Source: Escherichia coli (lineage in GTDB: Bacteria > Pseudomonadota > Gammaproteobacteria > Enterobacterales > Enterobacteriaceae). Taken from it: a stretch of 64,000 bases of DNA. The position numbers were made by a program, and so were the translations under genes. Shown one piece after another: positions 2,416-36,522 of this stretch. The stretch lies in NCBI RefSeq assembly GCF_016903815.1, contig NZ_CP069973.1. One strand, given 5' to 3'. The first letter of the stretch is position 1. Each line of letters begins with the position of its first letter. The notes beneath the pieces were generated by a model that saw only the letters and a program-made list of their open reading frames with translations, was not told the DNA's origin and made no database searches.

Positions 2416-3710
2416 AGACGCATCCCCTTCCCTTTGCGATGTAGCATCAAAGAAACCAGAAACGCCACCACGGCCATCAAGGTCACATACCAGAAGAAGG
2501 CTGTTTCCATTCCTATTGATTTCAGCGACAACGCTACGTACTCCGCCGAACCACCAAATATAGCATTGGCGACCGCATATGACAGACCAACACCTAATGC
2601 ACGAACCTGTGCCGGGAACATCTCAGCCTTCAGTATTCCACTGATTGAAGTATAAAAACTCACGATCAGCAGGGCACACATCACCAGACCAAAAGCGGCA
2701 TAAGGCGAGGAAACGTTTTGCAATGCTGAGAGAATAGGAACGGTAAAAATGGCTGCCAGAGAACCGAAACATAACATTGAGGTACGACGACCAATCTTAT
2801 CCGACAGCGCGCCAATGAGTGGTTGAATAAGCATGAATACAAACAATGCGGCAGTCATAATGCCACTCGCCACGTTGGCATGCATTCCCGCAGTATTTAC
2901 CAGATACTTCTGCATATAAGTGGTGAAGGTATAGAAACAAAGGGAGCCCGCAGCGGTAAAACCGAGAACCATGATGAATGCACGGCGATTGCGCCATAAT
3001 CCTTTCAGAGATCCAGCTTCTTTTAAAGCGCGTGTTTCTTGTTGTGAAGTTTCATCTAACTGACGACGTAACCACAACGCCACAACAGCTAACACAGCTC
3101 CTAACGCGAAAGGAATACGCCATCCCCACTCTCTGAGTGCAGCGTCTTCCATGGTGTGTTGTAAAACCACGACAACCAGTAGAGCTAGCAGTTGCCCGCC
3201 GATCAACGTCACATACTGAAATGATGCGTAAAAACCTTTGCGCCCTTCAACGGCAACTTCACTCATATAGGTGGCGCTGGTGCCATATTCTCCGCCAACG
3301 GATAATCCCTGGAATAAACGAGCAAGAAGCAATAATGCCGGAGCCCAGGTACCGATTGTTTCGTAGCCTGGCAAACAGGCGATAACCAGTGAGCCGAAAC
3401 ACATCATACACACCGATAACAGCATCGATTTTTTGCGACCATGTTTATCGGCTATGCGGCCAAATAGCCAACCGCCTATTGGGCGCATCAGAAATCCCGC
3501 AGCAAAAACACCTGCTGTTTGCAGTAGTTGAGTCGTCGTGTTCCCGGAAGGGAAGAAGATGTGAGCGAAGTAGAGTGAACAGAACGAGTAGACATAGAAA
3601 TCGAACCACTCGACCAGATTACCTGAAGAGGCCCCCACAATTGCCCAAATGCGGCGACGAGTATCACTACTTGTCAGTTTGCTGTCTGCCGTTACAGTAC
3701 TTTCAGCCAT
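2412..3710 (-). CDS. kgtP: Alpha-ketoglutarate:H+ symporter (MFS)
   Basis: The translation from [41 protein letters not shown] is recognised as KgtP (432 aa). The longer ORF start at 3812 is an N-terminal over-extension. Confidence 0.93.
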
Positions 3711-8963: not shown

Positions 8964-10505
<1,542 letters not shown>

Positions 10506-10686
10506 AAAAGTTTGATGCTCAAAGAATTAAACTTCGTAATGAATTACGTGTTCACTCTTGAGACTTGGTATTCATTTTTCGTCTTGCGACGTTAAGAATC
10601 CGTATCTTCGAGTGCCCACACAGATTGTCTGATAAATTGTTAAAGAGCAGTGCCGCTTCGCTTTTTCTCAGCGGCGCGGGGTGTGC

Positions 10687-10714
10687 ATAATACGCTTCCC
10701 CGCTACAGAGTCAA
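10687..10714 (-). promoter_or_regulatory. rrnG P2 promoter
   Basis: The minus strand has TTGACT (10709-10714), a 16-nt spacer, and TATTAT (10687-10692), matching the conserved rrn P2 sequence. Confidence 0.7.
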
Positions 10715-10804
10715 GCATTTTTTTGCTTTTCTCTGTTGAGATTCTCAGGAGAACCTCGCTGACCCGGCGGCGTGCTTGCCGTTGTTCCGTGTCAGTGGTG
10801 GCGC

Positions 10805-10832
10805 ATTATAGGGAGTTATTCCGGCCTGACAA
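10805..10832 (-). promoter_or_regulatory. rrnG P1 promoter (with A/T-rich UP region upstream)
   Basis: The minus strand has TTGTCA (10827-10832), a 16-nt spacer, and TATAAT (10805-10810), followed by the GC-rich discriminator GCGCCACC. An AAAAATATAAAAA tract lies upstream. Confidence 0.75.
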
Positions 10833-10915
10833 GCGAAAAATATAAAAACTTTATCGTTCGCTCATTTTTCAGGCAAAACATCTTAAATATAGTCTTTTCC
10901 GTCTAACTTATAGAC

Positions 10916-10942
10916 AAAAACGAGCCCCGAAGGGCTCGTTTT
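10916..10942 (-). terminator. clpB rho-independent terminator
   Basis: The minus strand reads ACGAGCCC-TTCG-GGGCTCGT followed by TTTTGTC, just after the clpB stop. Confidence 0.75.
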
Positions 10943-10947
10943 ATCAT

Positions 10948-13521
10948 TTACTGGACGGCGACAATCCGGTCTTCATTAACTTCCAGGCGAATCACTTTAC
11001 CCGGAACCAATTCACCAGACAGTATTTGCTGTGCCAGCGGGTTTTCAATCTGCTGCTGAATTGCACGTTTCAGAGGACGTGCGCCATAGACCGGATCGTA
11101 ACCGTTCTCGCTCAGCAGTTTCAGCGCCTCGTCAGAAATGTGGATTTCATAACCACGTTCTTCCAGACGTTTATACAGACGTTTCAACTGAATCTGCGCA
11201 ATCGACGCAATGTGCTGTTCACCCAGCGGATGGAAGACCACCACTTCATCGATACGGTTAATGAATTCCGGACGGAAGTTATGGCTAACCACACCGAGCA
11301 CCAGCTCTTTCATGTGCGCATAATCCAGTTCACCGAAGCGTTCCTGAATCAGATCGGAACCGAGGTTAGAGGTCATAATGACGACCGTATTACGGAAGTC
11401 GACCGTTCTCCCCTGCCCGTCAGTCAGACGCCCATCATCCAGTACCTGCAACAGAATGTTGAAGACATCCGGATGCGCTTTTTCCACTTCATCCAGCAGG
11501 ATAACGGAATACGGACGACGACGCACAGCTTCGGTCAGGTAGCCACCTTCTTCATAACCAACATATCCCGGAGGCGCACCAACCAGACGAGACACCGAAT
11601 GTTTCTCCATAAACTCGGACATATCGATACGGACCATCGCCTCGTCGCTATCAAACATAAAGTTCGCCAGCGCCTTACAAAGCTCAGTTTTCCCCACACC
11701 CGTTGGGCCGAGGAACAGGAATGAACCAATCGGGCGATTTGGATCCGCCAGCCCCGCACGGCTACGACGAATAGCGTTAGATACCGCATCAACCGCTTCG
11801 TTCTGACCAATAACGCGATGGTGCAGCTCTTGCTCCATACGCAGCAGTTTTTCGCGCTCGCTTTCCATCATGCGAGAAACCGGAATCCCCGTCCAACGCG
11901 CCAGCACTTCAGCAATTTCGGCGTCGGTCACTTTATTACGCAACAGACGCATAGTTTTGCCTTCGAGCTGCGTTGCGGCTTCCAGTTGCTTTTCCAGTTC
12001 CGGGATTTTGCCGTATTGCAGTTCAGACATCCGCGCCAGGTCACCCACACGGCGAGCCTGTTCAATAGCGATTTTCGCCTGTTCCAGTTCCGCTTTAATG
12101 GTCTGTGTACCAGAAAGCGATGCTTTCTCTGCTTTCCACTCTTCTTCTAACTCGGAGTACTGACGTTCTTTGTCGCTCAGTTCTTCGTTGAGCATATCCA
12201 GGCGTTTTTTACTGGCTTCATCAGACTCTTTCATTAACGCCTGTTGTTCCAGTTTGAGCTGGATAATACGACGATCGAGTCGGTCGAGTTCTTCTGGTTT
12301 TGAGTCAATCTGCATACGAATGCTGGATGCTGCTTCATCGATCAGGTCGATGGCTTTATCCGGCAGCTGACGGTCAGCAATGTAGCGATGAGACAACGTC
12401 GCCGCTGCAACAATTGCCGGGTCAGTAATTTGCACATGGTGGTGCAGTTCGTAACGTTCTTTTAAGCCACGCAGAATAGCAATGGTGTCTTCAACAGAAG
12501 GCTCGGCAACAAACACTTTCTGGAAACGACGTTCCAGCGCAGCATCTTTTTCGATGTACTGGCGATATTCGTCAAGCGTCGTGGCACCTACGCAGTGCAA
12601 TTCACCACGCGCCAGCGCCGGTTTCAGCATGTTTCCGGCGTCCATTGCGCCATCGGCTTTACCCGCGCCGACCATGGTATGTAATTCGTCGATAAACAGG
12701 ATGACGTTGCCTTCCTGTTTGGCAAGATCGTTAAGCACGCCTTTTAAACGTTCTTCAAACTCACCGCGATATTTCGCCCCAGCCACCAGCGCGCCCATAT
12801 CCAGCGCCAGTACGCGGCGGCCTTTCAACCCTTCCGGCACTTCGCCGTTGATAATACGCTGCGCCAGACCTTCAACGATGGCAGTTTTACCGACGCCGGG
12901 TTCACCAATCAGTACTGGGTTATTTTTAGTACGACGTTGCAGCACCTGAATGGTACGGCGAATTTCTTCATCACGACCAATCACCGGATCGAGTTTGCCC
13001 TGTTCGGCTCGTTCGGTAAGGTCGATGGTATATTTTTTCAAAGCCTGACGTTGGTCTTCAGCACCTTGATCGTTCACGCTTTCACCTCCACGCATTTGTT
13101 CAATCGCTTGAGTAATGTTGGCGGTGGTCGCCCCTGCTGCTTTCAGGATGTCGGCCAGCGTGCCGCGAGACTCAAGTGCCGCCAGAACGAACAGTTCTGA
13201 CGAGATAAAGTTATCACCACGTTTTTGCGCCAGCTTGTCGCAAAGATTAAGAACGCGCACCAGATCCTGTGATGGCTGGACATCACCACCAGTACCTTCA
13301 ACCTGCGGTAAACGATTTAATGCCTGATTGATATCTGTGCGCAACTGGCCAGCATTTATGCCAGCGGATGTTAATAAAGGACTAACCGAACCCCCTTCCT
13401 GATTCAGCAGGGCGCTCATTAAATGAAGTGGTTCGATAAATTGGTTGTCGTGCCCGAGTGCAAGTGATTGGGCATCGGCAAGAGCAAGCTGGAATTTATT
13501 AGTAAGACGATCCAGACGCAT
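10948..13521 (-). CDS. clpB: Disaggregase chaperone ClpB (AAA+)
   Basis: The translation [34 protein letters not shown]... has two Walker A motifs (GEPGVGKT and GPTGVGKT) and is 857 aa from ATG 13521. Confidence 0.96.
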
Positions 13522-27969: not shown

Positions 27970-30192
27970 TTGGCTGTTCAATTCGCTTATCCGTGGAACG
28001 TCCCACGGTCGGCAATCTCCAGCCCATACCTTACTTATGAGCAACAGCATCGCCGCGACCGTATGTTCGCGGCTTTGCTGCATGCAAAAAAGGTGCTTTC
28101 TCTCCAGCCCGACTGCGTGCGGTTAGATGTTTATCGCACTGCTGCGGTGCTGGAGCAAAATCAGGGTAGTCAACGAGCCAATGCATTTTTAATCAGCTTC
28201 TGCAAAAAGGCATTGCCGCGTCTTGAACTGGTCGCAAAAAAATACGAATGCGCTGGTATCAACAGCAAGGTATCAACCGCTGTTTTTGGAAGTCATTTTG
28301 ATACTCAGCAAATGCAATATCTGTCGTCACGCATGGTTAATATGGTCGCCCGATATAACCGTCTCCCGGACATGTCGCGCGCTGATGTTGACCTGTTGGC
28401 CGCTGATATTGCTAATTTCATTCGTGGTGAACTTGCCAACATTAATGACCACGGATTCGGCGAGCTTAAAACGCTGTACACCTGGTATATTCGTGCTGGC
28501 TTTATTTCCCTCCAATTCAACGTTATCCCACCACATTGGGAGCGGGTTGAAAAAAAATATGTCGGTGCGGATGAAATCGCACCGGCTATCGCCAAAATGT
28601 TTAACGATGGGTGGTGGCGCGGTCGTTTGCGCCGTGTAGCAGCTACGTGGCGCGAACACCTGCAAATTGCAGTCGGCAACGTCAGTAAGAAAAAAAACAC
28701 TTACGCGAGTAAAAACTGCGTGACTGACTGGCGTGAACAAAAGCGCCGCACTCGTGAATTTCTCAAAGGTCTGGATCTCGAAGACGAAGACGGCAACCGT
28801 ATCAGCCTAATTGAAAAATATGATGGCTCAGTTGCTAACCCTGCGATTCGCCGCTGTGAGCTCATGACCCGCATTCGTGGGTTTGAAAACATCTGTAATG
28901 AGCTCGGTTATGTCGGTGAGTTTTACACTCTAACCGCGCCGTCAAAATATCACGCCACGACTAAAGCCGGTTACCGTAACAGCAAATGGAGCGGTGCCAG
29001 CCCGGCTGACACGCAAAACTATCTAACCGGTATCTGGGCGCGTATCCGTGCCAAACTACATCGGGAAGATGTCCGTATTTTCGGTATTCGTGTCGCCGAG
29101 CCCCATCACGACGGCACTCCACACTGGCACATGCTGATGTTCATGCTGCCGGAAGATGTTGAATATGTTCGCTCCATCGTCCGTAAATACGCATGGAAAG
29201 AAGACCGCCACGAACTGAAAAGCGATAAATCCAAAAAAGCACGTTTCCACGCGGAGTCCATTGACCCGGAGAAAGGCAGCGCAACCGGCTATGTTGCTAA
29301 ATACATTTCAAAAAATATCGACGGTTATGCTCTCGATGGTGAAACCGATGATGAAAGCGGTGAGCTGCTGAAAGAGACAGCCCCCGCCGTTTCAGCATGG
29401 GCTGCGCGCTGGCACATCCGTCAGTTTCAGTTTATTGGTGGTGCGCCGGTGACGGTTTACCGTGAGTTGCGTCGCCTCGCTGATACCGAAACCGCGCACG
29501 GTCTGAGCGTTGAGTTTGCCGCCGTCCATGATGCCGCCGACGCTGGTGACTGGGCTGGTTATGTTAATGCTCAGGGTGGGCCGTTTGTCCGTCGCGATGA
29601 TTTACAGGTGCGCACACTGTATGAACCGCGTACCGAGCTTAATCAGTACGGTGAGGAAACGGTATGTATTAAGGGGGTCTACGATTCCTCCATAGGTGCA
29701 GGAAGCCCGATTTTAACCCGGCTCACTCAGTGGAAGATTGTTCCGAAGCGTGCTGTTGATTTGGCCGTTGACCTTCAGGACGGCAAAGCCGTCCCTCGGA
29801 GTTCTGTCAATAACTGTACGGGAAGCGAAAGCGATCCACCGATACTGGATTTAACAAAACCACTGAGTCGGCGTGAAAGACGAGAATTGACCAACCGACT
29901 CAGGAAGCAAAAGCCAGCAGCACGGCGAAAATTCATCCACGGAACGGATGAGCAAAACGCAGCTATAGCTAAAACTATCGATGAGATACATCTGACAACC
30001 GGCATTAATATCAGCCGGGGCGAAGCCCTGCACCTGATGGCCGGTGGTAAAAGTTGTTTTGATGGTAAATGGCTACGCGGAACGGCCAAAGGAGAAATAT
30101 TTTCCGCAGCACCATCGCATGAAGCTAAAGCTCGGAAAATCCTTAATCGTGTTGCGGCGATGGCTGAAGCATCAAAACCAATACATGAGTAA
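27970..30192 (+). CDS. A: Replication initiation endonuclease gpA (rolling-circle HUH nuclease)
   Basis: The 740-aa product has the HUH-type motif TPHWHMLMF and the tyrosine motif GYVAKYISKN. The start is TTG per the ORF track. Confidence 0.9.
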   Translation: MAVQFAYPWNVPRSAISSPYLTYEQQHRRDRMFAALLHAKKVLSLQPDCVRLDVYRTAAVLEQNQGSQRANAFLISFCKKALPRLELVAKKYECAGINSKVSTAVFGSHFDTQQMQYLSSRMVNMVARYNRLPDMSRADVDLLAADIANFIRGELANINDHGFGELKTLYTWYIRAGFISLQFNVIPPHWERVEKKYVGADEIAPAIAKMFNDGWWRGRLRRVAATWREHLQIAVGNVSKKKNTYASKNCVTDWREQKRRTREFLKGLDLEDEDGNRISLIEKYDGSVANPAIRRCELMTRIRGFENICNELGYVGEFYTLTAPSKYHATTKAGYRNSKWSGASPADTQNYLTGIWARIRAKLHREDVRIFGIRVAEPHHDGTPHWHMLMFMLPEDVEYVRSIVRKYAWKEDRHELKSDKSKKARFHAESIDPEKGSATGYVAKYISKNIDGYALDGETDDESGELLKETAPAVSAWAARWHIRQFQFIGGAPVTVYRELRRLADTETAHGLSVEFAAVHDAADAGDWAGYVNAQGGPFVRRDDLQVRTLYEPRTELNQYGEETVCIKGVYDSSIGAGSPILTRLTQWKIVPKRAVDLAVDLQDGKAVPRSSVNNCTGSESDPPILDLTKPLSRRERRELTNRLRKQKPAARRKFIHGTDEQNAAIAKTIDEIHLTTGINISRGEALHLMAGGKSCFDGKWLRGTAKGEIFSAAPSHEAKARKILNRVAAMAEASKPIHE

Positions 30193-30305: not shown

Positions 30306-30488
30306 ATGGTTGGCGAACATTTCAGCCGAACGCAGCAAAAGTGGGCTTGTGTGCAATTTATTGCCGAGGTATCTCTGATTGCAAACTGCAAGCCATCAGA
30401 CTTAAAGCTCGCGCTCACTCTCATTGCAGACCTAGCAAACAGCGAAAATAACGAAACCGAAGATGATAATTTTTATAAGGCTGATTAG
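30306..30488 (+). CDS. Small SOS-controlled protein, possible Tum-like antirepressor
   Basis: The 60-aa ORF has GGGAGGG as SD and lies directly downstream of the LexA box. By position it is analogous to 186 tum, but the sequence identity is not verified. Confidence 0.5.
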   Translation: MVGEHFSRTQQKWACVQFIAEVSLIANCKPSDLKLALTLIADLANSENNETEDDNFYKAD

Positions 30489-30491
30489 ATT

Positions 30492-30722
30492 ATGAGAATC
30501 AATATCACGTTGGATAAAGAGCAAAAATTAGGGCAACAGATCATTGATGCTTTTCAAAATGAAATAACACATCGAGTACAATGCGTTTTTCCTGCAACAA
30601 AAGTTAACGTTAAGAAAGGGTCAATGACTGGTGTAGAGGCTATCGGATTCGATAAAGAGGCGGACAGAGAAACATTAGGCAGCATATTACAAGAGATTTG
30701 GGAAGACGATAGCTGGCGTTAA
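30492..30722 (+). CDS. DinI-family protein
   Basis: MRINITLDKEQKLGQQIIDAFQNEITHRVQCVFP...LGSILQEIWEDDSWR parallels E. coli DinI (MRIEVTIAK...ISEILQETWESADDW). Confidence 0.8.
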   Translation: MRINITLDKEQKLGQQIIDAFQNEITHRVQCVFPATKVNVKKGSMTGVEAIGFDKEADRETLGSILQEIWEDDSWR

Positions 30723-30921
30723 ACATAATAACCGTGCTGGCGCAAAAACTAGCTTTTTGCGTCGGCGGGGTTGAGTAACGAGCCCACGAGGCTTAAGTCC
30801 TGCCTTTCAAAATTTCTCAATGTGCTATTGATGACACGCCCATGATTAATGAGGCATGACCTGAGATGGTTTTATAGTGGCGTTTTGACGGCACTGATTA
30901 AAATTCATTGAGGGTGATAAT

Positions 30922-31131
30922 ATGCATCGACTACCAGGTGAAATACCGCAACACAAAACTAAAAGCATCAAACTGATGGCCATCGTTCATCGTTTGCAGC
31001 AGATAATGGTCAATGAGAATTTGACACCCGCAGAGCTGGTCGGGTGTGCCGAAATAGTCAGGGATAATTACGGCAAGCTGGATAGCATCAGCAGGTCGAA
31101 ACAATACGCACCACCACCACGTCGACGATAG
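30922..31131 (+). CDS. Hypothetical 69-aa protein (cargo region)
   Basis: The evidence is the ORF alone. It is flanked by the two repeat units at 30733-30797 and 31136-31203. Confidence 0.35.
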   Translation: MHRLPGEIPQHKTKSIKLMAIVHRLQQIMVNENLTPAELVGCAEIVRDNYGKLDSISRSKQYAPPPRRR

Positions 31132-31205
31132 CAAACGCCGCCGGTTCTGAAACTCGCTTTCAGTACTGGCGGGGGTTGAACAACGAGCACCGCGAGGCGT
31201 TAGCA

Positions 31206-32147
31206 TTAATTTATTTTTAATGAATGGTAATCTCGTGAGTTGACCGAAGATTTGAGATAACTGCAATCATTAACCGACAGTATTGCCGCTAATAGGCGAC
31301 ATACCAGTGCCTGCATTTGCAGCAATATATCGTTACCATATTGACTGTTGTTAACACTTGAGAAACCAAGCGGTTGACCAAAAAAAATAGCCTCATGAAA
31401 ATTATCATTGCGGATGCCAGAAATGTTTTTTTTACCTGACACCCATGTGGGGATTGATAACCCATAAATTTTGCACATCCACTTTAATCGCTTGTAATGA
31501 TTTGGCGGTTTTTTATCAGGAGCCTTGTCATGCTCAGCCCACGACAAAGCAAAGCACCCATCAAGTGCCATGTAAAGGTACTGGAATTTTTCAAAAGAAA
31601 GGTATTGTGGGTTTTGAGATAAGAATAGTGCATGCACCACTGCCGCAATTCTTTTGGGGGAGTGCGCATCCTTATGTTTGCCATTTATATAATTAAGAGC
31701 CAGTTCTATGACTTCTTTTTCAGAGCATCCAACGAGAATAAAGTCGGTTAACTTAGTGGGCTTGATAGTGGTTGCATCTAAAAAACCAGCGTCAGTGGTT
31801 GTCAATCTTATTCCCTTGAAAAAAGAAAGGCACCACACAATAAAGTTGAGAGTTTCTAACGAGGATGTATTTTTTAATTTTAGTGTGTGCGTTTTGGGCA
31901 TACTGAATACTCGGTGACTATAAGGCATTGTGGATATGCCACCATTAAGGTTATATACATCTTGGTTTCCAGGGTATATCCAACCTTTCACAACGTTTTT
32001 ATCATTATTAACACGCTCCACTTTCTCATTGAGACCAGGTAAAGTAAGCAAAGAAAATTGTTCAGTCTCAATGTTAACTTCTACTGGATAGTATCCAAAC
32101 TCCGACATAATCTCATTGGGTTGCTGTTCGTCAACTTCACCTTGCAT
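31206..32147 (-). CDS. Hypothetical 313-aa protein with C-terminal RNDNFH (Rx4H, HEPN-like) motif; candidate phage-exclusion factor
   Basis: It is a long AT-rich ORF (22/60 G+C in line 31861). GGAGAAAG lies 2 nt before ATG 32147. The motif is encoded at 31395-31412. It occupies the gpA-to-cos slot where P2 carries tin/old. Confidence 0.7.
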   Translation of the reverse strand: MQGEVDEQQPNEIMSEFGYYPVEVNIETEQFSLLTLPGLNEKVERVNNDKNVVKGWIYPGNQDVYNLNGGISTMPYSHRVFSMPKTHTLKLKNTSSLETLNFIVWCLSFFKGIRLTTTDAGFLDATTIKPTKLTDFILVGCSEKEVIELALNYINGKHKDAHSPKRIAAVVHALFLSQNPQYLSFEKFQYLYMALDGCFALSWAEHDKAPDKKPPNHYKRLKWMCKIYGLSIPTWVSGKKNISGIRNDNFHEAIFFGQPLGFSSVNNSQYGNDILLQMQALVCRLLAAILSVNDCSYLKSSVNSRDYHSLKIN

Positions 32148-32384
32148 ATCTTTCTCCGTTCAAAAATAGGCTCGATAATTATCGAGAGGCTATCATGTTT
32201 GGAAAGAATCAATGTCCGTAATTTTTGTAAATTTAAGGTGATTTATCAATAAATAAGCTGTGCATGCAACAGGTGCATGGTTCTGCATGCGCCGGGGTTA
32301 CCCGTTTTGTACGTGCGCCGCAAGAGCTGGCGGGGATCCAGAGTGGTCATGCAACTGCATTAAAACCGCCCCATAAAGCGGGCA

Positions 32385-32403
32385 GGCGTGGCGGGGAAAG
32401 CAT
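32385..32403. other. cos cohesive-end site (186 type)
   Basis: GGCGTGGCGGGGAAAGCAT matches my memory of the 19-nt 186 cohesive end (P2: GGCGAGGCGGGGAAAGCAC). Confidence 0.8.
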
Positions 32404-32622
32404 TGCGCGCCAGCAGTGATGCGTAATAATAAAAATTATCCTCTGAGCGCGTCGTGATGGCGCTGTCGTGGTCGCTGCTGGTTCGTTGGTGGTCGGGTGT
32501 GTTCGTGCGCGTGAGACGCATCTGATGCGTGATGGTGGTGTGCATGGAAAAGCCACCAGGAGCAGCGGCTTTACAGGAGTGGCAGGATTCAAACTGCTAA
32601 TTATGTTTCTACTATGATTAAA

Positions 32623-33627
32623 CTAATTTACATGTATGTAGAGTTCACCGTCGCCAGACCAATCGGGACACTCTAAAACAAGCCCAAACTGCTTGAATAT
32701 TTCATCAATGATTATTGTTATCTCCCGAAAATCACCAAAACCTGTAATGTGCTGGTCATTAAACTTCCCATAAAGATTCTGAAAAGCAATGCCTAATTCT
32801 GATAATTGATATCTTATCTTTGAGTTGGATAGTGTAAGGGATAGCTTTGGATCGTATTCTTTAATATTGATGTTTAGAGAATGGACATAACCCATCGCAT
32901 AAGCATAAGAGTTGATGATTAGCCTGATACGTTTTTTTACTTCGAGATACATGTCATTCAGAGAAATATTACCGTACTTATAACCCCAGATGAGTTTTTC
33001 AATCTCGTCAGATACTTCATTTACAACAGTGTCAAGATTCTCTAAAAATAAATCGATAGTTTCTTGAGGGGCAGACCCCGAAGACATGTAATTAGCGAGA
33101 TATTCAGACCATGCACGCGTGGCTGAGATAAGAAGCGCGCTACCATACTCGTTGACTGTAAAGTTTTGGGCTAAGCATGTTAGTAAGTTTTTTTCATGTA
33201 CGTGCACTAATTCATGGTGAATGCGATGGATGACTGCGAGGTATCCTTCTTCTTTCAGTTTTAAGAAGCTACCATCATTGAAAAGCTCAACAAAAAAATC
33301 AATCGATAGCACAAGGGTATATTCTTCACATAGCCCATCATTGCCAATTTTTGTTACTAACTGCCCGACGGCTGCGCCCTGTTTGCTATTGGTAAATGAA
33401 CTAGGGGATTTGTGTTGGTAAGAGGATGTTACCTTTTGAAGAGCTTCACTGAAGTTATAGGAAACAATCACGCATTTTAATTTGGAGATATCAAGATTGA
33501 GATTTTTTGTTAAAGCTCGGATAGCTTCTAGTGTGAAATTACCGATATTATTTGCTTCTTGCTCAGTAGCGAAACCTTCGAGGGTTATTTTAAAATCAGT
33601 TTCCAAAATATTAATCTCCGCGCCCAT
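32623..33627 (-). CDS. Hypothetical 334-aa protein with HELVH (HExxH) motif; candidate zinc metallopeptidase-like exclusion factor
   Basis: It is a long AT-rich ORF (20/60 G+C in line 32821). HExxH is encoded at 33202-33216 (verified by hand). It lies between cos and the portal gene. Confidence 0.7.
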   Translation of the reverse strand: MGAEINILETDFKITLEGFATEQEANNIGNFTLEAIRALTKNLNLDISKLKCVIVSYNFSEALQKVTSSYQHKSPSSFTNSKQGAAVGQLVTKIGNDGLCEEYTLVLSIDFFVELFNDGSFLKLKEEGYLAVIHRIHHELVHVHEKNLLTCLAQNFTVNEYGSALLISATRAWSEYLANYMSSGSAPQETIDLFLENLDTVVNEVSDEIEKLIWGYKYGNISLNDMYLEVKKRIRLIINSYAYAMGYVHSLNINIKEYDPKLSLTLSNSKIRYQLSELGIAFQNLYGKFNDQHITGFGDFREITIIIDEIFKQFGLVLECPDWSGDGELYIHVN

Positions 33628-33645
33628 TGTTTTGATATTCGATGC

Positions 33646-33674
33646 ACTATAGCTTTCGCAGATTGCATCTTCAA
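33646..33674 (-). promoter_or_regulatory. Predicted sigma70 promoter for the 334-aa gene
   Basis: The minus strand has TTGAAG (33669-33674), a 17-nt spacer, and TATAGT (33646-33651), about 19 nt upstream of ATG 33627. Confidence 0.4.
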
Positions 33675-33704
33675 TAATGAGCGCAGAGATTGTGGCGGCC
33701 TAAG

Positions 33705-34751
33705 TTATTCTGGGTTGTCGAGGGTGTACTCTTTGAATCTGATGACCTCCATGCCGAGCCAGTCATTTACCTCCCTGAACCGGTCCTGTAGCGGCGACAG
33801 CTCGTTGCGCACAAATACCTTTGCCACCTTCTCAACATCACCGAGTGAACCGATATTCTCGGGCTTGCCGCCCATGAGCTGGAACGGTACGCGGTGCGCG
33901 TCCATCAGATCGGCGGCACTGGCCTTCTTGATGTTGAAAAAGTCATCCTTTGTGGCGACCTCGCTCAGTGGCACGATTTTGATGCCGTCCGGTTTTCCGC
34001 CGGGAGCGTAGAAAAACAGGTTCTTAAAGTTGCCGAGCCCTTTTGAGTTGCGCATCGCCTCGCGCAGCGATTCGACGTCGGTCGCGCTCTGCGCCGGGTC
34101 AGTCACATACATGATGTAACCCGCGTGCGCGCCGTTCTGATAATACTTGCGGCGGAACAGCGTCGCGGATTCATTCAGCCAGGCGGAATTTAGCGCGCTG
34201 AGATATTCGGGCAGGCCGTAAATCTCCTGATTAATGTCGGGCTCCAGCAGGTGAAACACGGTATCAGGCGCGAACTCGTGCGGCTGGGTGAAGTTTTCCA
34301 CAAACCAGAAAATCGAATCGTCGACTCCGCGTCGGGTGTATTTGGCTGGCGAGGCCAGCAGTTTGATTAACTGGCCGGTGACGCTGTGGCGCTGCTCAAG
34401 AAAGGCGTTACCGAACACCAGATAATCGAGCGCAAAGCGGCTGAAATCCTGACGGGATAACAACGGGTGCGGAATGTAGGTGCTCGCGAGCACGTTACGC
34501 TTAACATAAATTGGCGAGCTGTGATGCACGGCAGAGCGCAGGCTCTTTGCCAGCCCTGAGAAGCTGACCGGCGGCTCGTACCATTTGCCGTTACTGATGC
34601 ACTCGACGTAATCCAGAATGTCGCGCTTATCGAGCACCGGCACCGGCTCGCCGAAGGTGAACGCTGTCGTTTTTGGCGGTGCGCTGGCGGTCAGTTGTTG
34701 TGGTTTGCTGGCCTTTTGTGCGTTGGCTTTACGGGATTTTTGTTTACCCAT
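33705..34751 (-). CDS. Q: Portal protein (P2 gpQ homolog)
   Basis: The 348-aa product is recognised as the gpQ family and is adjacent to the terminase. Confidence 0.92.
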   Translation of the reverse strand: MGKQKSRKANAQKASKPQQLTASAPPKTTAFTFGEPVPVLDKRDILDYVECISNGKWYEPPVSFSGLAKSLRSAVHHSSPIYVKRNVLASTYIPHPLLSRQDFSRFALDYLVFGNAFLEQRHSVTGQLIKLLASPAKYTRRGVDDSIFWFVENFTQPHEFAPDTVFHLLEPDINQEIYGLPEYLSALNSAWLNESATLFRRKYYQNGAHAGYIMYVTDPAQSATDVESLREAMRNSKGLGNFKNLFFYAPGGKPDGIKIVPLSEVATKDDFFNIKKASAADLMDAHRVPFQLMGGKPENIGSLGDVEKVAKVFVRNELSPLQDRFREVNDWLGMEVIRFKEYTLDNPE

Positions 34752-34752
34752 T

Positions 34753-36522
34753 TTAGTTGAACTCCAGAATAGATTTAGGCTGCATGCCGCTACCGGCAGA
34801 AAGCGGTTCGTTTAACAGGGCGTGCATGGTCGCCCATGCGATATCGGCGTGGCTGGCTTCCTCGGTGCGGCTGGCCTCATAGGTGGCGCTGCGCCCGCTG
34901 CTGGTCATGGTTTTGCGGATGGACATAAACGACTGCGTGACGTCGGTTGCTCCGGCGTCGTACTCCAGACAGCCACGGCGAATGGTGTCTTTCGCCTTGA
35001 GTACCATTGCGGTTTTCATTTCAGGTGTGTAACGGATGCCGCGTGCCGCCGGGTAAAATGAGCGCACCAGCTGGAACACGCCGAGACCGAGGCCGGTTGC
35101 GTCAATGCCGATGTATTCGACGTTGTATTTCTCGGTCAGCTTGCGGATGCCCTCTGCCTGTGCTGCAAAATCCATGCCCTTCCACTGGTGGCGCTCCAGC
35201 ATGCGGAACTTGCCACCAGAGACCACCGGCGGCGCGAGCACGACGCACCCGGCACTGTCGCCGGTGTGTGACGGGTCGTAGCCAATCCAGACAGGACGAG
35301 AGCCGAACGGATGGTCGGCGAACGGGGCAAAGTCCTCCCATTCCTCCATTACATCGACCATGCAGCGCTGCAGCTCCTCGAACGGGAATACCGACGCTTT
35401 ATCGTCGACAAACTCGCACATAAACAGGTTCTTAAAGTCCTCATCACTGTTTTCGCGTTTGAGCTGGTCGAGGTCGAACAGGGTGCAGCCACCCGCAAGG
35501 GCGTCCTCAATGGTGACAATCTGCCGCCACTGGCCATCGTCGCAGAGCTGGCCACCGGCGAGCGCGCTGTGACTGATGTCGATTTCGATGCGGTCGGCAA
35601 TCCGGCTGCGCCCCTTGTTGAACAGCTCGCCAGACCAGAAGGGGTAAGCGCCGTGCGCCAGCGTGGAAGGTGTCGAAAAATAGGTCGAGCGCAGGTGCTT
35701 TTGCGAGGCCATGCCCGAGGCGACTTTGCGCAGTTTCTGAAAATTCGGGATCCAGAATATTTCATCGACATACAGATCGCCGTTATGGCTCTGCGCGGTG
35801 TTGGAATTGGTACCGAGAAAAATCAGTTTTGCGCCGTTGTTACCGATGACAATCGGGTCGCCAGTCAGGTCAACGTCGACCAGTCGCGCAAACTGGATGA
35901 TGTATTCGCGGAACACGTAAGCCTGCGTTTTACTGGCTGATAAAAATATCTGGTTATGGCCGGTTTTGAGTGCGCGCAGCAGTGCCTCGCGGGAGAAATA
36001 GAATGTCGCGCCAATCTGGCGGGATTTGAGAATGTCACGAATACGGTGCTCCAGTCCTGCGCGGTACCACTGCAACTGGTACTCGAAAGACTGGTCGAAA
36101 AATAATTCCTCTAGTTTATCGATAGCCTCGTCGCTGAAAAAATTCTTTTTCGGCTTTTTGCGCTCCCCTTTGTTGCGGTTGGCGACGTTGGGGTTAAGGT
36201 CGGCTTCGTTGCCGGTCTGGCTGTAGCGGTTGACTCGCGCCAACCGTTCAATCTGCCGTCCGAGCAGGTCAATCTCTTTGAAATCACCCCCTGTCTTTTG
36301 CGGCTTGGCGATGAGCTGAATCAGCCTAGCCTCAAGGCTGCTTTCAACGCGGGAAATCGGCGCGATGCCGTCCCAGCCGTCACGCTGCTTCCAGCTCTGC
36401 ACGGTCGGGCGCTTGACCTGCAGCATTTCGGCAATCTGTGGCACGGAAAAACCCTGCCAGTAAAGCAGCGATGCCTGCCGTCGCGGGTCATGCAACAAGG
36501 TTGTATCGGTGGAAATGGTCAT
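34753..36522 (-). CDS. P: Terminase large subunit (P2 gpP homolog)
   Basis: The 589-aa product is in the gpP position, divergent from O-N-M. Confidence 0.92.
   Translation of the reverse strand: MTISTDTTLLHDPRRQASLLYWQGFSVPQIAEMLQVKRPTVQSWKQRDGWDGIAPISRVESSLEARLIQLIAKPQKTGGDFKEIDLLGRQIERLARVNRYSQTGNEADLNPNVANRNKGERKKPKKNFFSDEAIDKLEELFFDQSFEYQLQWYRAGLEHRIRDILKSRQIGATFYFSREALLRALKTGHNQIFLSASKTQAYVFREYIIQFARLVDVDLTGDPIVIGNNGAKLIFLGTNSNTAQSHNGDLYVDEIFWIPNFQKLRKVASGMASQKHLRSTYFSTPSTLAHGAYPFWSGELFNKGRSRIADRIEIDISHSALAGGQLCDDGQWRQIVTIEDALAGGCTLFDLDQLKRENSDEDFKNLFMCEFVDDKASVFPFEELQRCMVDVMEEWEDFAPFADHPFGSRPVWIGYDPSHTGDSAGCVVLAPPVVSGGKFRMLERHQWKGMDFAAQAEGIRKLTEKYNVEYIGIDATGLGLGVFQLVRSFYPAARGIRYTPEMKTAMVLKAKDTIRRGCLEYDAGATDVTQSFMSIRKTMTSSGRSATYEASRTEEASHADIAWATMHALLNEPLSAGSGMQPKSILEFN

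What the first reader, a model, noticed from the sequence alone, without database searches (positions are those of the whole stretch)
30723..33704. Accessory island straddling cos: three orphan genes contiguous only in the circular or prophage form
Between the last recognisable early-region gene (DinI-like, ending 30722) and the portal gene (33705) lie about 3 kb. This region holds three unassigned ORFs (69 aa on the plus strand, 313 aa and 334 aa on the minus strand) and the cos site. The 313-aa and 334-aa genes are co-oriented and separated only by the 475-bp cos-containing GC-rich block. In virion DNA cut at cos they would lie at opposite genome ends. They become neighbours again only after circularisation or integration. 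If the two act together (for example a HEPN-like effector plus an HExxH sensor or protease), this would be a system whose genetic linkage depends on genome topology. If they are independent, the phage simply uses both sides of cos as cargo slots.
Basis: inference. Interest (0 to 1): 0.65.

Follow-up and report, generated by a model that had tools for sequence, protein, structure and literature searches.

The report
Independent cargo genes flanking prophage cos
The two orphan genes on either side of the packaging site of this P2/186-type E. coli prophage are real, but they are separate, independently swapped cargo genes in an already known variable hotspot, not one system split by the cut site.

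Summary
Between the DinI-like gene and the portal gene lie orf69, ORF313, a 316-bp conserved cos block and ORF334. The cos 19-mer (32385-32403) is identical to that of phage 186.

The linkage idea fails. In 5,426 complete E. coli genomes ORF313 occurs in 97, ORF334 in 25 and both in 16, and those 16 are one near-identical prophage lineage. In IMG/VR only 2 contigs carry both, out of 14 with ORF334 and 45 with ORF313. Distant homologues of each gene are lone genes with no shared partner.

The region is the known gpA–gpQ hotspot of P2-like phages (Rousset 2022), and this exact arrangement is listed, untested, in their Table S5A.

ORF313 is the "ORF313" of P2-EC67. It has an invariant RNxxxH motif and weak HEPN fold matches. 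ORF334 has an invariant HExxH motif and a confident gluzincin metallopeptidase fold. It is a 1,132-bp AT-rich insertion exactly between the portal stop codon and the late terminator tW.

The portal side of cos is a second, less used cargo slot: it holds at least 1.3 kb in 8 of 80 relatives and a small insert in 7 more. The functions of both genes are inferred, not shown.

The parts
30492..30722 (+). DinI-like / TumB-like gene, the last backbone gene of the SOS (p95-type) operon. Left border of the variable region.
   Evidence: Pfam DinI at 1.7e-17. Equivalent to the 186 tum region. The PSP3 record splits this region into tumA and tumB.
30752..30800 (.). Junction element, copy 1 (about 45 bp; core GGCGGGGTTGAGTAACGAGC). 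It lies just after a t95a-like hairpin at 30736-30753.
   Evidence: Direct repeat D4. The element also occurs in phage 186, P2-EC67, L002 and L003 at cargo borders.
30922..31131 (+). orf69, a small cargo gene of unknown function, carried on a 405-bp unit bracketed by the two junction-element copies.
   Evidence: PHROG 11386 at 1.5e-47. It is present or absent independently of ORF313 and ORF334. L002 has it and L003 lacks it, with a 405-bp offset and two copies of the element versus one.
31157..31205 (.). Junction element, copy 2, abutting the ORF313 stop codon.
31206..32147 (-). ORF313, a lone cargo gene on the gpA side of cos. It has an N-terminal beta-rich domain and a C-terminal helical domain with a conserved RNxxxH(E/D) motif (R246, N247, H251). 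Probably HEPN-like.
32256..32571 (.). Conserved cos block, the non-coding packaging region shared with 186-type phages. It separates the two cargo slots.
   Evidence: Homology with relatives whose portal side is empty (L080, L081, L083) spans 32256/32261/32317 to 32557/32558/32571. Alignment to both ends of phage 186.
32385..32403 (+). cos cohesive-end 19-mer, GGCGTGGCGGGGAAAGCAT.
   Evidence: two mismatches to the P2 sequence as I recalled it. Identical to the annotated 186 cos at 1-19.
32545..32572 (-). Homologue of tW, the 186 late-operon intrinsic terminator: a 9-bp GC-rich stem followed by a U tract.
   Evidence: Terminator scan hit at 32566-32552. tW is annotated at 186 positions 164-187. 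Alignment and hairpin fold.
32572..33703 (.). 1,132-bp AT-rich insertion (a moron) holding ORFB334's gene, ORF334, placed exactly between the portal stop codon and tW.
   Evidence: Homology to relatives with an empty slot runs through the portal to 33704 and resumes at 32571. In L081 only 7 bp separate those two points. GC is 0.35-0.42.
32623..33627 (-). ORF334 (probably 327 aa from the TTG at 33606), a lone cargo gene on the portal side of cos. It has the predicted fold of a gluzincin-type zinc metallopeptidase, with invariant H138-E139-x-x-H142 and invariant E145, N147 and W173-S-E175-Y.
33646..33674 (-). Candidate sigma-70 promoter (TTGAAG-17-TATAGT) in the 77-bp gap between the portal and ORF334.
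   Evidence: A consensus scan only, 9 of 12 matches. Not evidence of function.
33705..34751 (-). Portal gene (P2 Q / 186 W homologue). Right border of the variable region.
   Evidence: Annotated as portal in identical records. 599 relatives in IMG/VR.

Best explanation
Window 30723-33704 is the cos-proximal gpA–gpQ accessory hotspot of a 186/P2-type (Peduoviridae) prophage. It holds three independent, separately exchangeable single-gene cassettes, not one system.

On the replication-gene side of cos lie orf69, on a 405-bp unit bounded by a repeated junction element of about 45 bp, and ORF313, a HEPN-like protein that starts near cos and reads toward gene A. This is the same slot that P2 uses for old and tin, and 186 for orf97.

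On the portal side lies ORF334, a zinc metallopeptidase-like protein. It sits on a 1.13-kb AT-rich moron inserted precisely between the portal stop codon and the late terminator tW.

The conserved 316-bp cos block, the junction elements and the portal/tW border act as shared linkers, so homologous recombination between related prophages reassorts the cargo on each side independently. The present pairing is therefore one lineage's combination.

Shown: the anatomy, the insertion borders, the independence of the two genes, the folds and motifs, and purifying selection.

Inferred: each gene works alone as an accessory gene for competition between phages. ORF313 would be a HEPN-type RNase made from its own promoter in the lysogen and acting as an abortive-infection or exclusion gene. 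ORF334 would be a protease acting on a phage or host protein, transcribed from a weak promoter of its own and/or by read-through of the late P–Q operon.
For: Identity of the region: the window is 100% identical over 3.4 kb to phage vB_EcoM-613R3 and to 7 E. coli chromosomes. cos and tW match phage 186. Rousset et al. 2022 (PMC9122126) define the gpA–gpQ cos-proximal hotspot, and their Table S5A lists this arrangement as WP_001622301 + WP_001622299 + WP_001622297 + DinI.

Independence in E. coli: ORF313 is in 97 of 5,426 genomes, ORF334 in 25 and both in 16. All 16 are at least 99.6% identical across the region.

Independence in IMG/VR: 14 loci carry ORF334 and 45 carry ORF313, and only the same 2 contigs have both.

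Varied partners: ORF334 occurs with at least 6 different A-side contents, including almost none in L011, L016 and L002.

Distant homologues: ORF334 relatives occur in Vibrio, Psychromonas, Colwellia, Gilliamella and others. ORF313 relatives occur in Pseudomonas, Acinetobacter and Aeromonas. In all of these the gene stands alone with no conserved neighbour.

Position: ORF334 is always portal–ORF334–cos and ORF313 is always on the A side.

The portal-side slot recurs with other cargo, including relatives of PD-T4-2/NsnA, DndB/DpdB and PLD proteins.

Cassette linkers. Folds and motifs. Purifying selection. AT-rich cargo in a GC-rich backbone.
Against: No function was tested. Neither protein hits PADLOC, Pfam or NCBIfam, so a defence role rests only on location in a defence hotspot and on fold.

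Raw co-occurrence in E. coli (16 observed against about 0.45 expected if independent) is far above chance. It is discounted only because all 16 are one prophage lineage.

The 80-contig survey took the contigs closest to this portal, so the slot-usage frequencies are not population estimates.

Recombination at the linkers is inferred from the mosaic pattern, not observed.
Confidence: 0.85

Rival explanations
1. One reading: ORF313 (HEPN effector) and ORF334 (HExxH sensor or protease) form one two-gene system. Its genes are neighbours only in the circular or integrated genome and are separated when terminase cuts cos.
For: The genes are co-oriented, adjacent across 475 bp and both AT-rich. They co-occur in 16 E. 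coli genomes, far more than random expectation. Protease-plus-nuclease pairs do exist among defence systems (general knowledge).
Against: All co-occurrences belong to one prophage lineage at least 99.6% identical. Eighty-one of 97 ORF313 genomes lack ORF334, and 9 of 25 ORF334 genomes lack ORF313. In IMG/VR, 43 of 45 ORF313 loci lack ORF334 and 12 of 14 ORF334 loci lack ORF313. No distant homologue of either gene has the other nearby. The terminator tW and the cos hairpin lie between them. ORF334 is nearly identical (99.5-100%) in prophages with different A-side cargo.
Confidence: 0.04
2. ORF334 is not a gene that protects the lysogen. It is a late lytic-cycle function: as the third gene of the late P–Q transcription unit it is made together with terminase and portal, and it acts for the phage, for example as a counter-defence protease or by cleaving a host or competitor protein during lytic growth. 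ORF313 remains an independent lysogen-expressed gene.
For: The insertion lies upstream of tW, inside the late transcription unit and co-oriented with the portal gene. In two distant P2-like contigs (L015, L017) the order is P, Q, an Ogr/Delta-like zinc-finger gene, then the ORF334 homologue, all tightly packed or overlapping on one strand. Only a weak promoter match (9 of 12) precedes ORF334.
Against: Many morons sit inside late operons yet are expressed from their own promoters in lysogens (Hendrix moron model; lambda bor and lom; general knowledge). Other cargo in the same slot is often on the opposite strand and includes relatives of known defence proteins. Distant ORF334 homologues sit in non-phage contexts next to defence-type genes, namely a CAP12/Pycsar TIR protein and a KAP-like NTPase. 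The gene is dispensable: it is split in TW10598 and has an internal stop in L011.
Confidence: 0.2
3. The cargo genes are functionless hitch-hikers or decaying remnants, and the region is just tolerated junk next to cos.
For: There is no family annotation. Disrupted copies occur occasionally.
Against: dN/dS is 0.12-0.32. Catalytic-type motifs are invariant across members at 24-60% identity. Both families are large and taxonomically wide. The predicted folds are confident.
Confidence: 0.04

Closest known systems
The gpA–gpQ (old/tin, 'TO region') cos-proximal defence hotspot of P2-like phages (Odegrip 2006, as cited in Rousset 2022; Rousset et al. 2022, PMC9122126; the iLund4u preprint 10.1101/2024.10.15.618418; NAR 2026, PMC13586616)
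   Same: Same location, between the replication endonuclease gpA and the portal gpQ, next to cos. Same AT-rich, highly variable cargo in an otherwise syntenic backbone. This exact gene arrangement is in Rousset's Table S5A.
   Different: In the passages I read, those papers treat the locus as a single hotspot. Here it resolves into two slots separated by a conserved 316-bp cos block. The portal-side slot lies between the portal stop codon and tW and is occupied in a minority of relatives. Neither ORF313 nor ORF334 was tested in those studies, as far as the supplement shows. Their 'Putative HEPN' clone pFR103 is a different protein.
Phage 186 orf97 and P2 old/tin (exclusion genes at the right genome end)
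   Same: ORF313 occupies the same A-side slot between the SOS/early genes and cos. The 186 record says that orf97 'expression from plasmid blocks 186 infection'.
   Different: There is no sequence relationship. ORF313 is on the opposite strand to orf97, and from memory on the same strand as P2 old. Its activity is unknown.
HEPN-domain abortive-infection or toxin RNases (Csm6, the HEPN toxin of HEPN–MNT, AbiV, the HEPN domain of AbiA)
   Same: ORF313 has a conserved RNxxxH(E/D) motif in a C-terminal all-helical domain, and its best structural neighbours are HEPN proteins. It is a single-gene mobile element cargo.
   Different: No Pfam HEPN model matches any of 56 members scanned. The fold scores are modest and Foldseek is not significant. 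ORF313 has a distinct N-terminal beta-rich domain of about 140 residues. No antitoxin-like neighbour is conserved.
Lit protease of prophage e14 (Peptidase_U49), a lone prophage HExxH metalloprotease that cleaves EF-Tu during T4 infection. This is recalled from general knowledge and was not retrieved here.
   Same: A possible functional analogue for ORF334: a single prophage-borne HExxH zinc protease of about 300 aa with no partner gene.
   Different: There is no detectable sequence similarity (no Pfam or PADLOC hit at E<=0.1). The fold neighbours of ORF334 are the M1, M30, M9 and M4 gluzincins. The analogy is a lead, not a test.
Morons (Hendrix/Juhala model): autonomous AT-rich genes inserted between genes of late operons in temperate phages
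   Same: The ORF334 module is a clean 1,132-bp insertion with lower GC, placed between two adjacent backbone features (the portal stop and tW), and it is absent from close relatives.
   Different: It has no terminator of its own and would use tW. Its own promoter is only a weak consensus match.

Membership tests
P2-like gpA–gpQ cos-proximal accessory/defence hotspot (Rousset 2022) | Located between the replication endonuclease gpA and the portal gpQ of a P2-family prophage | tested here: met
   gpA is at 27970-30192 and the portal at 33705-34751. Identical records are annotated this way.
P2-like gpA–gpQ cos-proximal accessory/defence hotspot (Rousset 2022) | Adjacent to the cos packaging site | tested here: met
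   cos at 32385-32403 is identical to the cos of phage 186.
P2-like gpA–gpQ cos-proximal accessory/defence hotspot (Rousset 2022) | Cargo varies among otherwise syntenic relatives | tested here: met
   Cargo differs on both sides of cos across 74 + 80 related loci.
P2-like gpA–gpQ cos-proximal accessory/defence hotspot (Rousset 2022) | Cargo confers anti-phage activity | not testable with these tools
   No PADLOC hit for ORF313 or ORF334. The arrangement is listed among the loci of Table S5A but is not among the cloned systems seen in Table S2.
Two-gene (multi-component) defence system | Components co-occur across independent lineages and contexts | tested here: not met
   Co-occurrence is confined to one prophage lineage at least 99.6% identical. 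Distant homologues never pair.
Two-gene (multi-component) defence system | Components are co-transcribed or share regulation | tested here: inconclusive
   The sequence shows a conserved terminator (tW) and the cos hairpin between the genes. No transcript data are available.
HEPN superfamily (ORF313) | Conserved Rx4-6H motif | tested here: met
   R246, N247 and H251 are invariant in 46 members and 94-99% conserved in 96 representatives at 24-48% identity.
HEPN superfamily (ORF313) | Four-helix up-down HEPN fold carrying the motif | tested here: inconclusive
HEPN superfamily (ORF313) | Match to a curated HEPN family model, such as Pfam HEPN_Apea | tested here: not met
   No Pfam HEPN hit for the query, the 46 aligned members or 10 divergent representatives. 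One UniRef entry carries the name 'Apea-like HEPN'.
HEPN superfamily (ORF313) | Metal-independent RNase activity | not testable with these tools
   Requires biochemistry.
Gluzincin (thermolysin-like, clan MA(E)) zinc metallopeptidases (ORF334) | HExxH zinc-binding and catalytic motif on a helix | tested here: met
   H138, E139 and H142 are invariant in 38 members down to 41% identity and lie in helix 126-148.
Gluzincin (thermolysin-like, clan MA(E)) zinc metallopeptidases (ORF334) | Third zinc ligand: a Glu on a downstream helix | tested here: inconclusive
   E175 is invariant in W-S-E-Y on helix 160-185, and E145 is also invariant. The geometry was not inspected.
Gluzincin (thermolysin-like, clan MA(E)) zinc metallopeptidases (ORF334) | Thermolysin-like catalytic-domain fold | tested here: met
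Gluzincin (thermolysin-like, clan MA(E)) zinc metallopeptidases (ORF334) | Sequence match to a curated peptidase family | tested here: not met
   No Pfam, NCBIfam or PADLOC hit, and no PDB sequence hit.
Lit (Peptidase_U49) abortive-infection protease | Match to the family model | tested here: not met
   No Pfam hit at E<=0.1 for ORF334.

The most novel reading that the evidence does not exclude
The hotspot would really be two functionally different slots split by cos. The A-side slot holds lysogen-expressed exclusion genes. The portal-side slot lies inside the late P–Q transcription unit, upstream of tW. Co-oriented cargo there, such as the ORF334 metallopeptidase, would be made during lytic growth and would serve the phage, as counter-defence or as interference with competitors or satellites, rather than protecting the lysogen. 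Both protein families would then be new single-gene effectors with no curated family.
Probability: 0.2. Interest if true: 0.55.

Novelty: new member of a known kind. Interest (0 to 1): 0.3.

Why it matters
The split-system idea would have been a new principle, gene linkage that depends on genome topology, but the data do not support it. Three more modest points remain useful.

(1) Two widespread protein families with no curated family are pinned to a known anti-phage hotspot and come with clear catalytic-residue predictions. They are an RNxxxH HEPN-like family with at least 665 representatives at 50% clustering, and an HExxH gluzincin-like family. Both are cheap candidates for defence or counter-defence screens.

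(2) The well-studied P2 gpA–gpQ hotspot resolves into two slots with a conserved cos block between them. The portal-side slot lies inside the late transcription unit. This matters for anyone who predicts systems by guilt-by-association across the whole locus, because genes on opposite sides of cos should not be assumed to be one system.

(3) Short conserved linkers at the cassette borders suggest how the cargo is reassorted.

Tried and rejected
- PADLOC, Pfam and NCBIfam scans of the three ORFs found nothing for ORF313, ORF334 or orf69. Pfam scans of 46 family members and of 10 divergent representatives of ORF313 found no HEPN model.
- Profile searches against PDB sequences gave only chance-level hits.
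- Foldseek against the PDB for ORF313 gave no significant hit.
- The afdb50 fold library was not available.
- I searched for a conserved neighbour of distant ORF334 homologues by all-against-all BLAST of the flanking ORFs. None was found. A 311-313-aa upstream ORF in three loci turned out to be three unrelated proteins: a DUF1848 protein, a repeat protein and a BRO antirepressor.
- I checked whether Rousset's tested 'Putative HEPN' clone (pFR103, E. coli S88) is ORF313. It is a different sequence.
- Literature searches by protein accession and by 'P2-EC67' or 'ORF313' found no paper in the held library.
- I considered that the above-chance co-occurrence in E. coli (16 genomes) might indicate linkage. 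I rejected this because all 16 are one near-identical prophage.
- I considered treating the small ORFs that PGAP calls inside the cos block as genes. I rejected this because they overlap cos, tW and conserved non-coding sequence.
Full report
**1. What is there**

The window carries a 186/P2-type (Peduoviridae) prophage. The 3.4 kb around the finding are 100% identical to Escherichia phage vB_EcoM-613R3 (ON470592) and to 7 E. coli chromosomes, and at least 99.6% identical to 9 more.

- gpA at 27970-30192 (+);
- a 60-aa TumA-like ORF at 30306-30488;
- the DinI/TumB-like gene at 30492-30722 (Pfam DinI at 1.7e-17);
- orf69 at 30922-31131 (+);
- ORF313 at 31206-32147 (-);
- a 475-bp spacer;
- ORF334 at 32623-33627 (-);
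- the portal at 33705-34751 (-) and the terminase ATPase at 34753-36522 (-).

The spacer has about 51% GC. The two cargo genes have 35-42% and the late genes 55-60%.

The cos 19-mer GGCGTGGCGGGGAAAGCAT lies at 32385-32403. It is identical to the annotated cohesive end of phage 186, whose linear record starts at that base. So in packaged DNA the two genes would indeed lie at opposite ends.

One refinement concerns the start of ORF334. The likely start is the TTG at 33606, giving 327 aa. It has a GGAG 9 nt upstream, it is the start PGAP chose, and it matches most homologues.

**2. The genes are real**

- All three ORFs match PHROG families of unknown function.
- ORF313 has 398 homologue clusters in the 90% database. 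At 50% clustering it has 665 representatives at E<=1e-3.
- ORF334 has 78 clusters.
- Pairwise dN/dS against diverged alleles is 0.12-0.26 for ORF313 and 0.19-0.32 for ORF334.

**3. The test of linkage**

In 5,426 complete E. coli genomes, ORF313 DNA (down to about 78% identity) is in 97 genomes and ORF334 is in 25. Both are present in 16, and all 16 are at least 99.6% identical to the window over the whole 3.4 kb. That is one prophage lineage and one origin. Nine genomes have ORF334 without ORF313, for example MB06232 and TW10598. Eighty-one have ORF313 without ORF334.

In IMG/VR, 14 contigs encode an ORF334 relative and 45 encode an ORF313 relative. Only the same two contigs, both near-identical to the window, carry both.

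ORF334 is found with at least six different contents on the gpA side. These include a 253-aa ORF in the position and orientation of 186 orf97, larger multi-gene cargo, and almost nothing (L011, L016, L002).

Distant ORF334 homologues (40-53% identity) occur in an Alteromonadaceae MAG, Psychromonas, Pseudoalteromonas, Vibrio, Colwellia and Gilliamella. They have no P2 genes, no ORF313 relative and no conserved neighbour at all. Their neighbours include a CAP12/Pycsar-type TIR protein, a KAP-like NTPase and a BRO antirepressor.

Distant ORF313 homologues are lone genes in three settings:
- a P. aeruginosa island about 3 kb from a Gabija-like gene pair (OLD-TOPRIM ATPase plus UvrD helicase);
- a small Acinetobacter islet;
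- among housekeeping genes in Aeromonas.

**4. Transcriptional separation**

Phage 186 has an annotated late terminator tW at 164-187, between cos and the portal stop codon at 196. The window keeps this element at about 32545-32572 on the minus strand. It has a 9-bp GC-rich stem followed by U's. It lies downstream of ORF334 and upstream of cos. The conserved cos-adjacent hairpin at 32366-32385 also scores as terminator-like. Read-through from ORF334 into ORF313 would have to pass both. This is sequence evidence only.

**5. Anatomy of the insertions**

Close relatives with an empty portal side (L080, L081, L083) are homologous through the portal gene to window 33704 and again from 32571 downward. 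In L081 only 7 bp separate these two points. The ORF334 module is therefore a clean 1,132-bp insertion (32572-33703) between the portal stop codon and tW. That places it inside the late P–Q transcription unit. It is AT-rich, which is the classic picture of a moron. A weak sigma-70 match (TTGAAG-17-TATAGT, 33674-33646) lies in the 77-bp gap before ORF334.

The conserved cos block is 32256-32571.

On the other side, ORF313 starts 108 bp from that block and reads toward gpA. Its stop codon abuts a junction element of about 45 bp (GCTTTCAG..CTGGCGGGGTTGAACAACGAGC..CGCGAGGCGTTAGC). This element occurs twice in the window, bracketing a 405-bp unit that carries orf69. It occurs twice in L002, which has orf69, and once in L003, which lacks orf69 and is exactly 405 bp shorter. 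It occurs once in phage 186 and once in P2-EC67.

Three kinds of conserved linker therefore delimit the cassettes: the junction elements, the cos block and the portal/tW border. Homologous recombination at these linkers is the simplest explanation for the independent assortment seen in section 3. This is an inference.

**6. Both sides of cos are cargo slots**

I took the 80 IMG/VR contigs whose portal is most similar to this one (76-100% identity). The distance from the portal stop to cos was:
- 157-181 bp (empty slot) in 64;
- 382-490 bp in 7, each with a DUF2188 ORF of 74-103 aa;
- at least 1.3 kb in 8;
- one artefactual value.

Only one of the eight large inserts is ORF334. The others are mostly two-gene cassettes:
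- relatives of PD-T4-2_A/NsnA (a DUF262 protein plus a second protein) in L141 and L143;
- a DndB/DpdB-like protein plus a partner in L150;
- a PLD-type three-gene cassette in L142;
- two pairs with no PADLOC match, each with a probably membrane-spanning second protein.

Several of these lie on the strand opposite to the portal gene. The sample is biased toward close relatives, so the frequencies are indicative only.

ORF334 was on the portal side in all 16 loci with a recognisable cos. ORF313 was always on the gpA side.

**7. What the proteins look like**

**8. Relation to what is known**

The region is the cos-proximal gpA–gpQ hotspot of P2-like phages, which holds old and tin in P2. It has been catalogued by Rousset et al. 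2022 (1,650 arrangements in 18,150 loci), by the iLund4u preprint and by a 2026 NAR paper. In the passages I read, these papers treat it as one hotspot and do not split it at cos.

Rousset's Table S5A contains this very arrangement, WP_001622301 + WP_001622299 + WP_001622297 + DinI, labelled 'hypothetical'. Their tested 'Putative HEPN' (pFR103) is a different protein.

ORF313 is the 'ORF313' of the P2-EC67 proviral record AM157369. In phage 186 the same slot holds orf97, which is annotated as blocking 186 infection when expressed from a plasmid.

**9. Most likely mechanism**

Shown: three independent cassettes in a known hotspot, their borders, and their folds and motifs.

Inferred:
- ORF313 is a lysogen-expressed HEPN-type RNase that acts alone as an exclusion or abortive-infection gene.
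- ORF334 is a zinc metallopeptidase that acts alone on a phage or host protein. The e14 Lit protease is a functional analogy from general knowledge, not a relative.
- Whether ORF334 is made in the lysogen, only late in lytic growth, or both is open. Its position inside the late unit favours the late reading. So does the tight P–Q–Ogr/Delta-like–ORF334 arrangement in two distant P2-like contigs. I give that reading about 0.2.

**10. Verdict**

The locus is a known kind of hotspot with two uncharacterised but well-defined cargo families. The small new point is that the portal side of cos, between the portal stop codon and tW, is a recurrent second cargo slot. Interest is modest.

Noticed in passing
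window 30752-30800 and 31157-31205; L002 2851-2900 and 3256-3305; L003 2851-2900; L077 about 3367-3415; L158 about 1359-1407: A conserved junction element of about 45 bp (GCTTTCAG..CTGGCGGGGTTGAACAACGAGC..CGCGAGGCGTTAGC) sits at cargo borders. Two copies bracket a 405-bp unit carrying orf69. A relative without orf69 has one copy and is exactly 405 bp shorter. The element looks like a cassette linker or recombination site.
   Followed up: partly
L078-L157 (80 IMG/VR contigs), region between the portal stop and cos: The portal side of cos is a recurrent second cargo slot. It is empty (157-181 bp) in 64 contigs, holds a small DUF2188 gene in 7, and holds at least 1.3 kb in 8. The large cargo includes relatives of PD-T4-2/NsnA, DndB/DpdB-like proteins and PLD-type cassettes.
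   Followed up: partly
L010, L016, L020, L021, L022, L032, L054 (between terminase P and portal Q): In these relatives about 745 bp separate the end of the terminase ATPase gene from the start of the portal gene, against about 4 bp in the window. This suggests another insertion point inside the late operon.
   Followed up: no
L015 5639-5965 and L017 5624-5950: In two distant P2-like viral contigs an Ogr/Delta-type zinc-finger gene (Pfam 9.8e-17) lies between the portal gene and the ORF334 homologue. All are tightly packed on one strand.
   Followed up: partly
L003 3719-4722 (E. coli TW10598); L011 6001-7002: ORF334 is split into two ORFs in TW10598 and has an internal stop in one IMG/VR contig. 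This is occasional decay of the cargo gene.
   Followed up: no
window 32264-32419 (+) and 32360-32545 (-): Public annotations of identical records (PGAP on the chromosomes, and the phage record) place small ORFs of 51 and 61 aa inside the conserved cos block. They overlap the cos 19-mer, its flanking hairpin or tW, and are probably not genes.
   Followed up: partly
window 30306-30722: The 186 tum gene equivalent is split here into a 60-aa ORF (annotated 'UV induction of prophage') and a separate DinI-like ORF, as with tumA and tumB of Salmonella phage PSP3.
   Followed up: no
L160-L163 (P. aeruginosa), genes at 9984-12960: The Pseudomonas ORF313 homologue lies in an integrative-element-like island (ParB_N and DUF932 genes), about 3 kb from a Gabija-like pair (OLD-TOPRIM ATPase plus UvrD helicase).
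   Followed up: no
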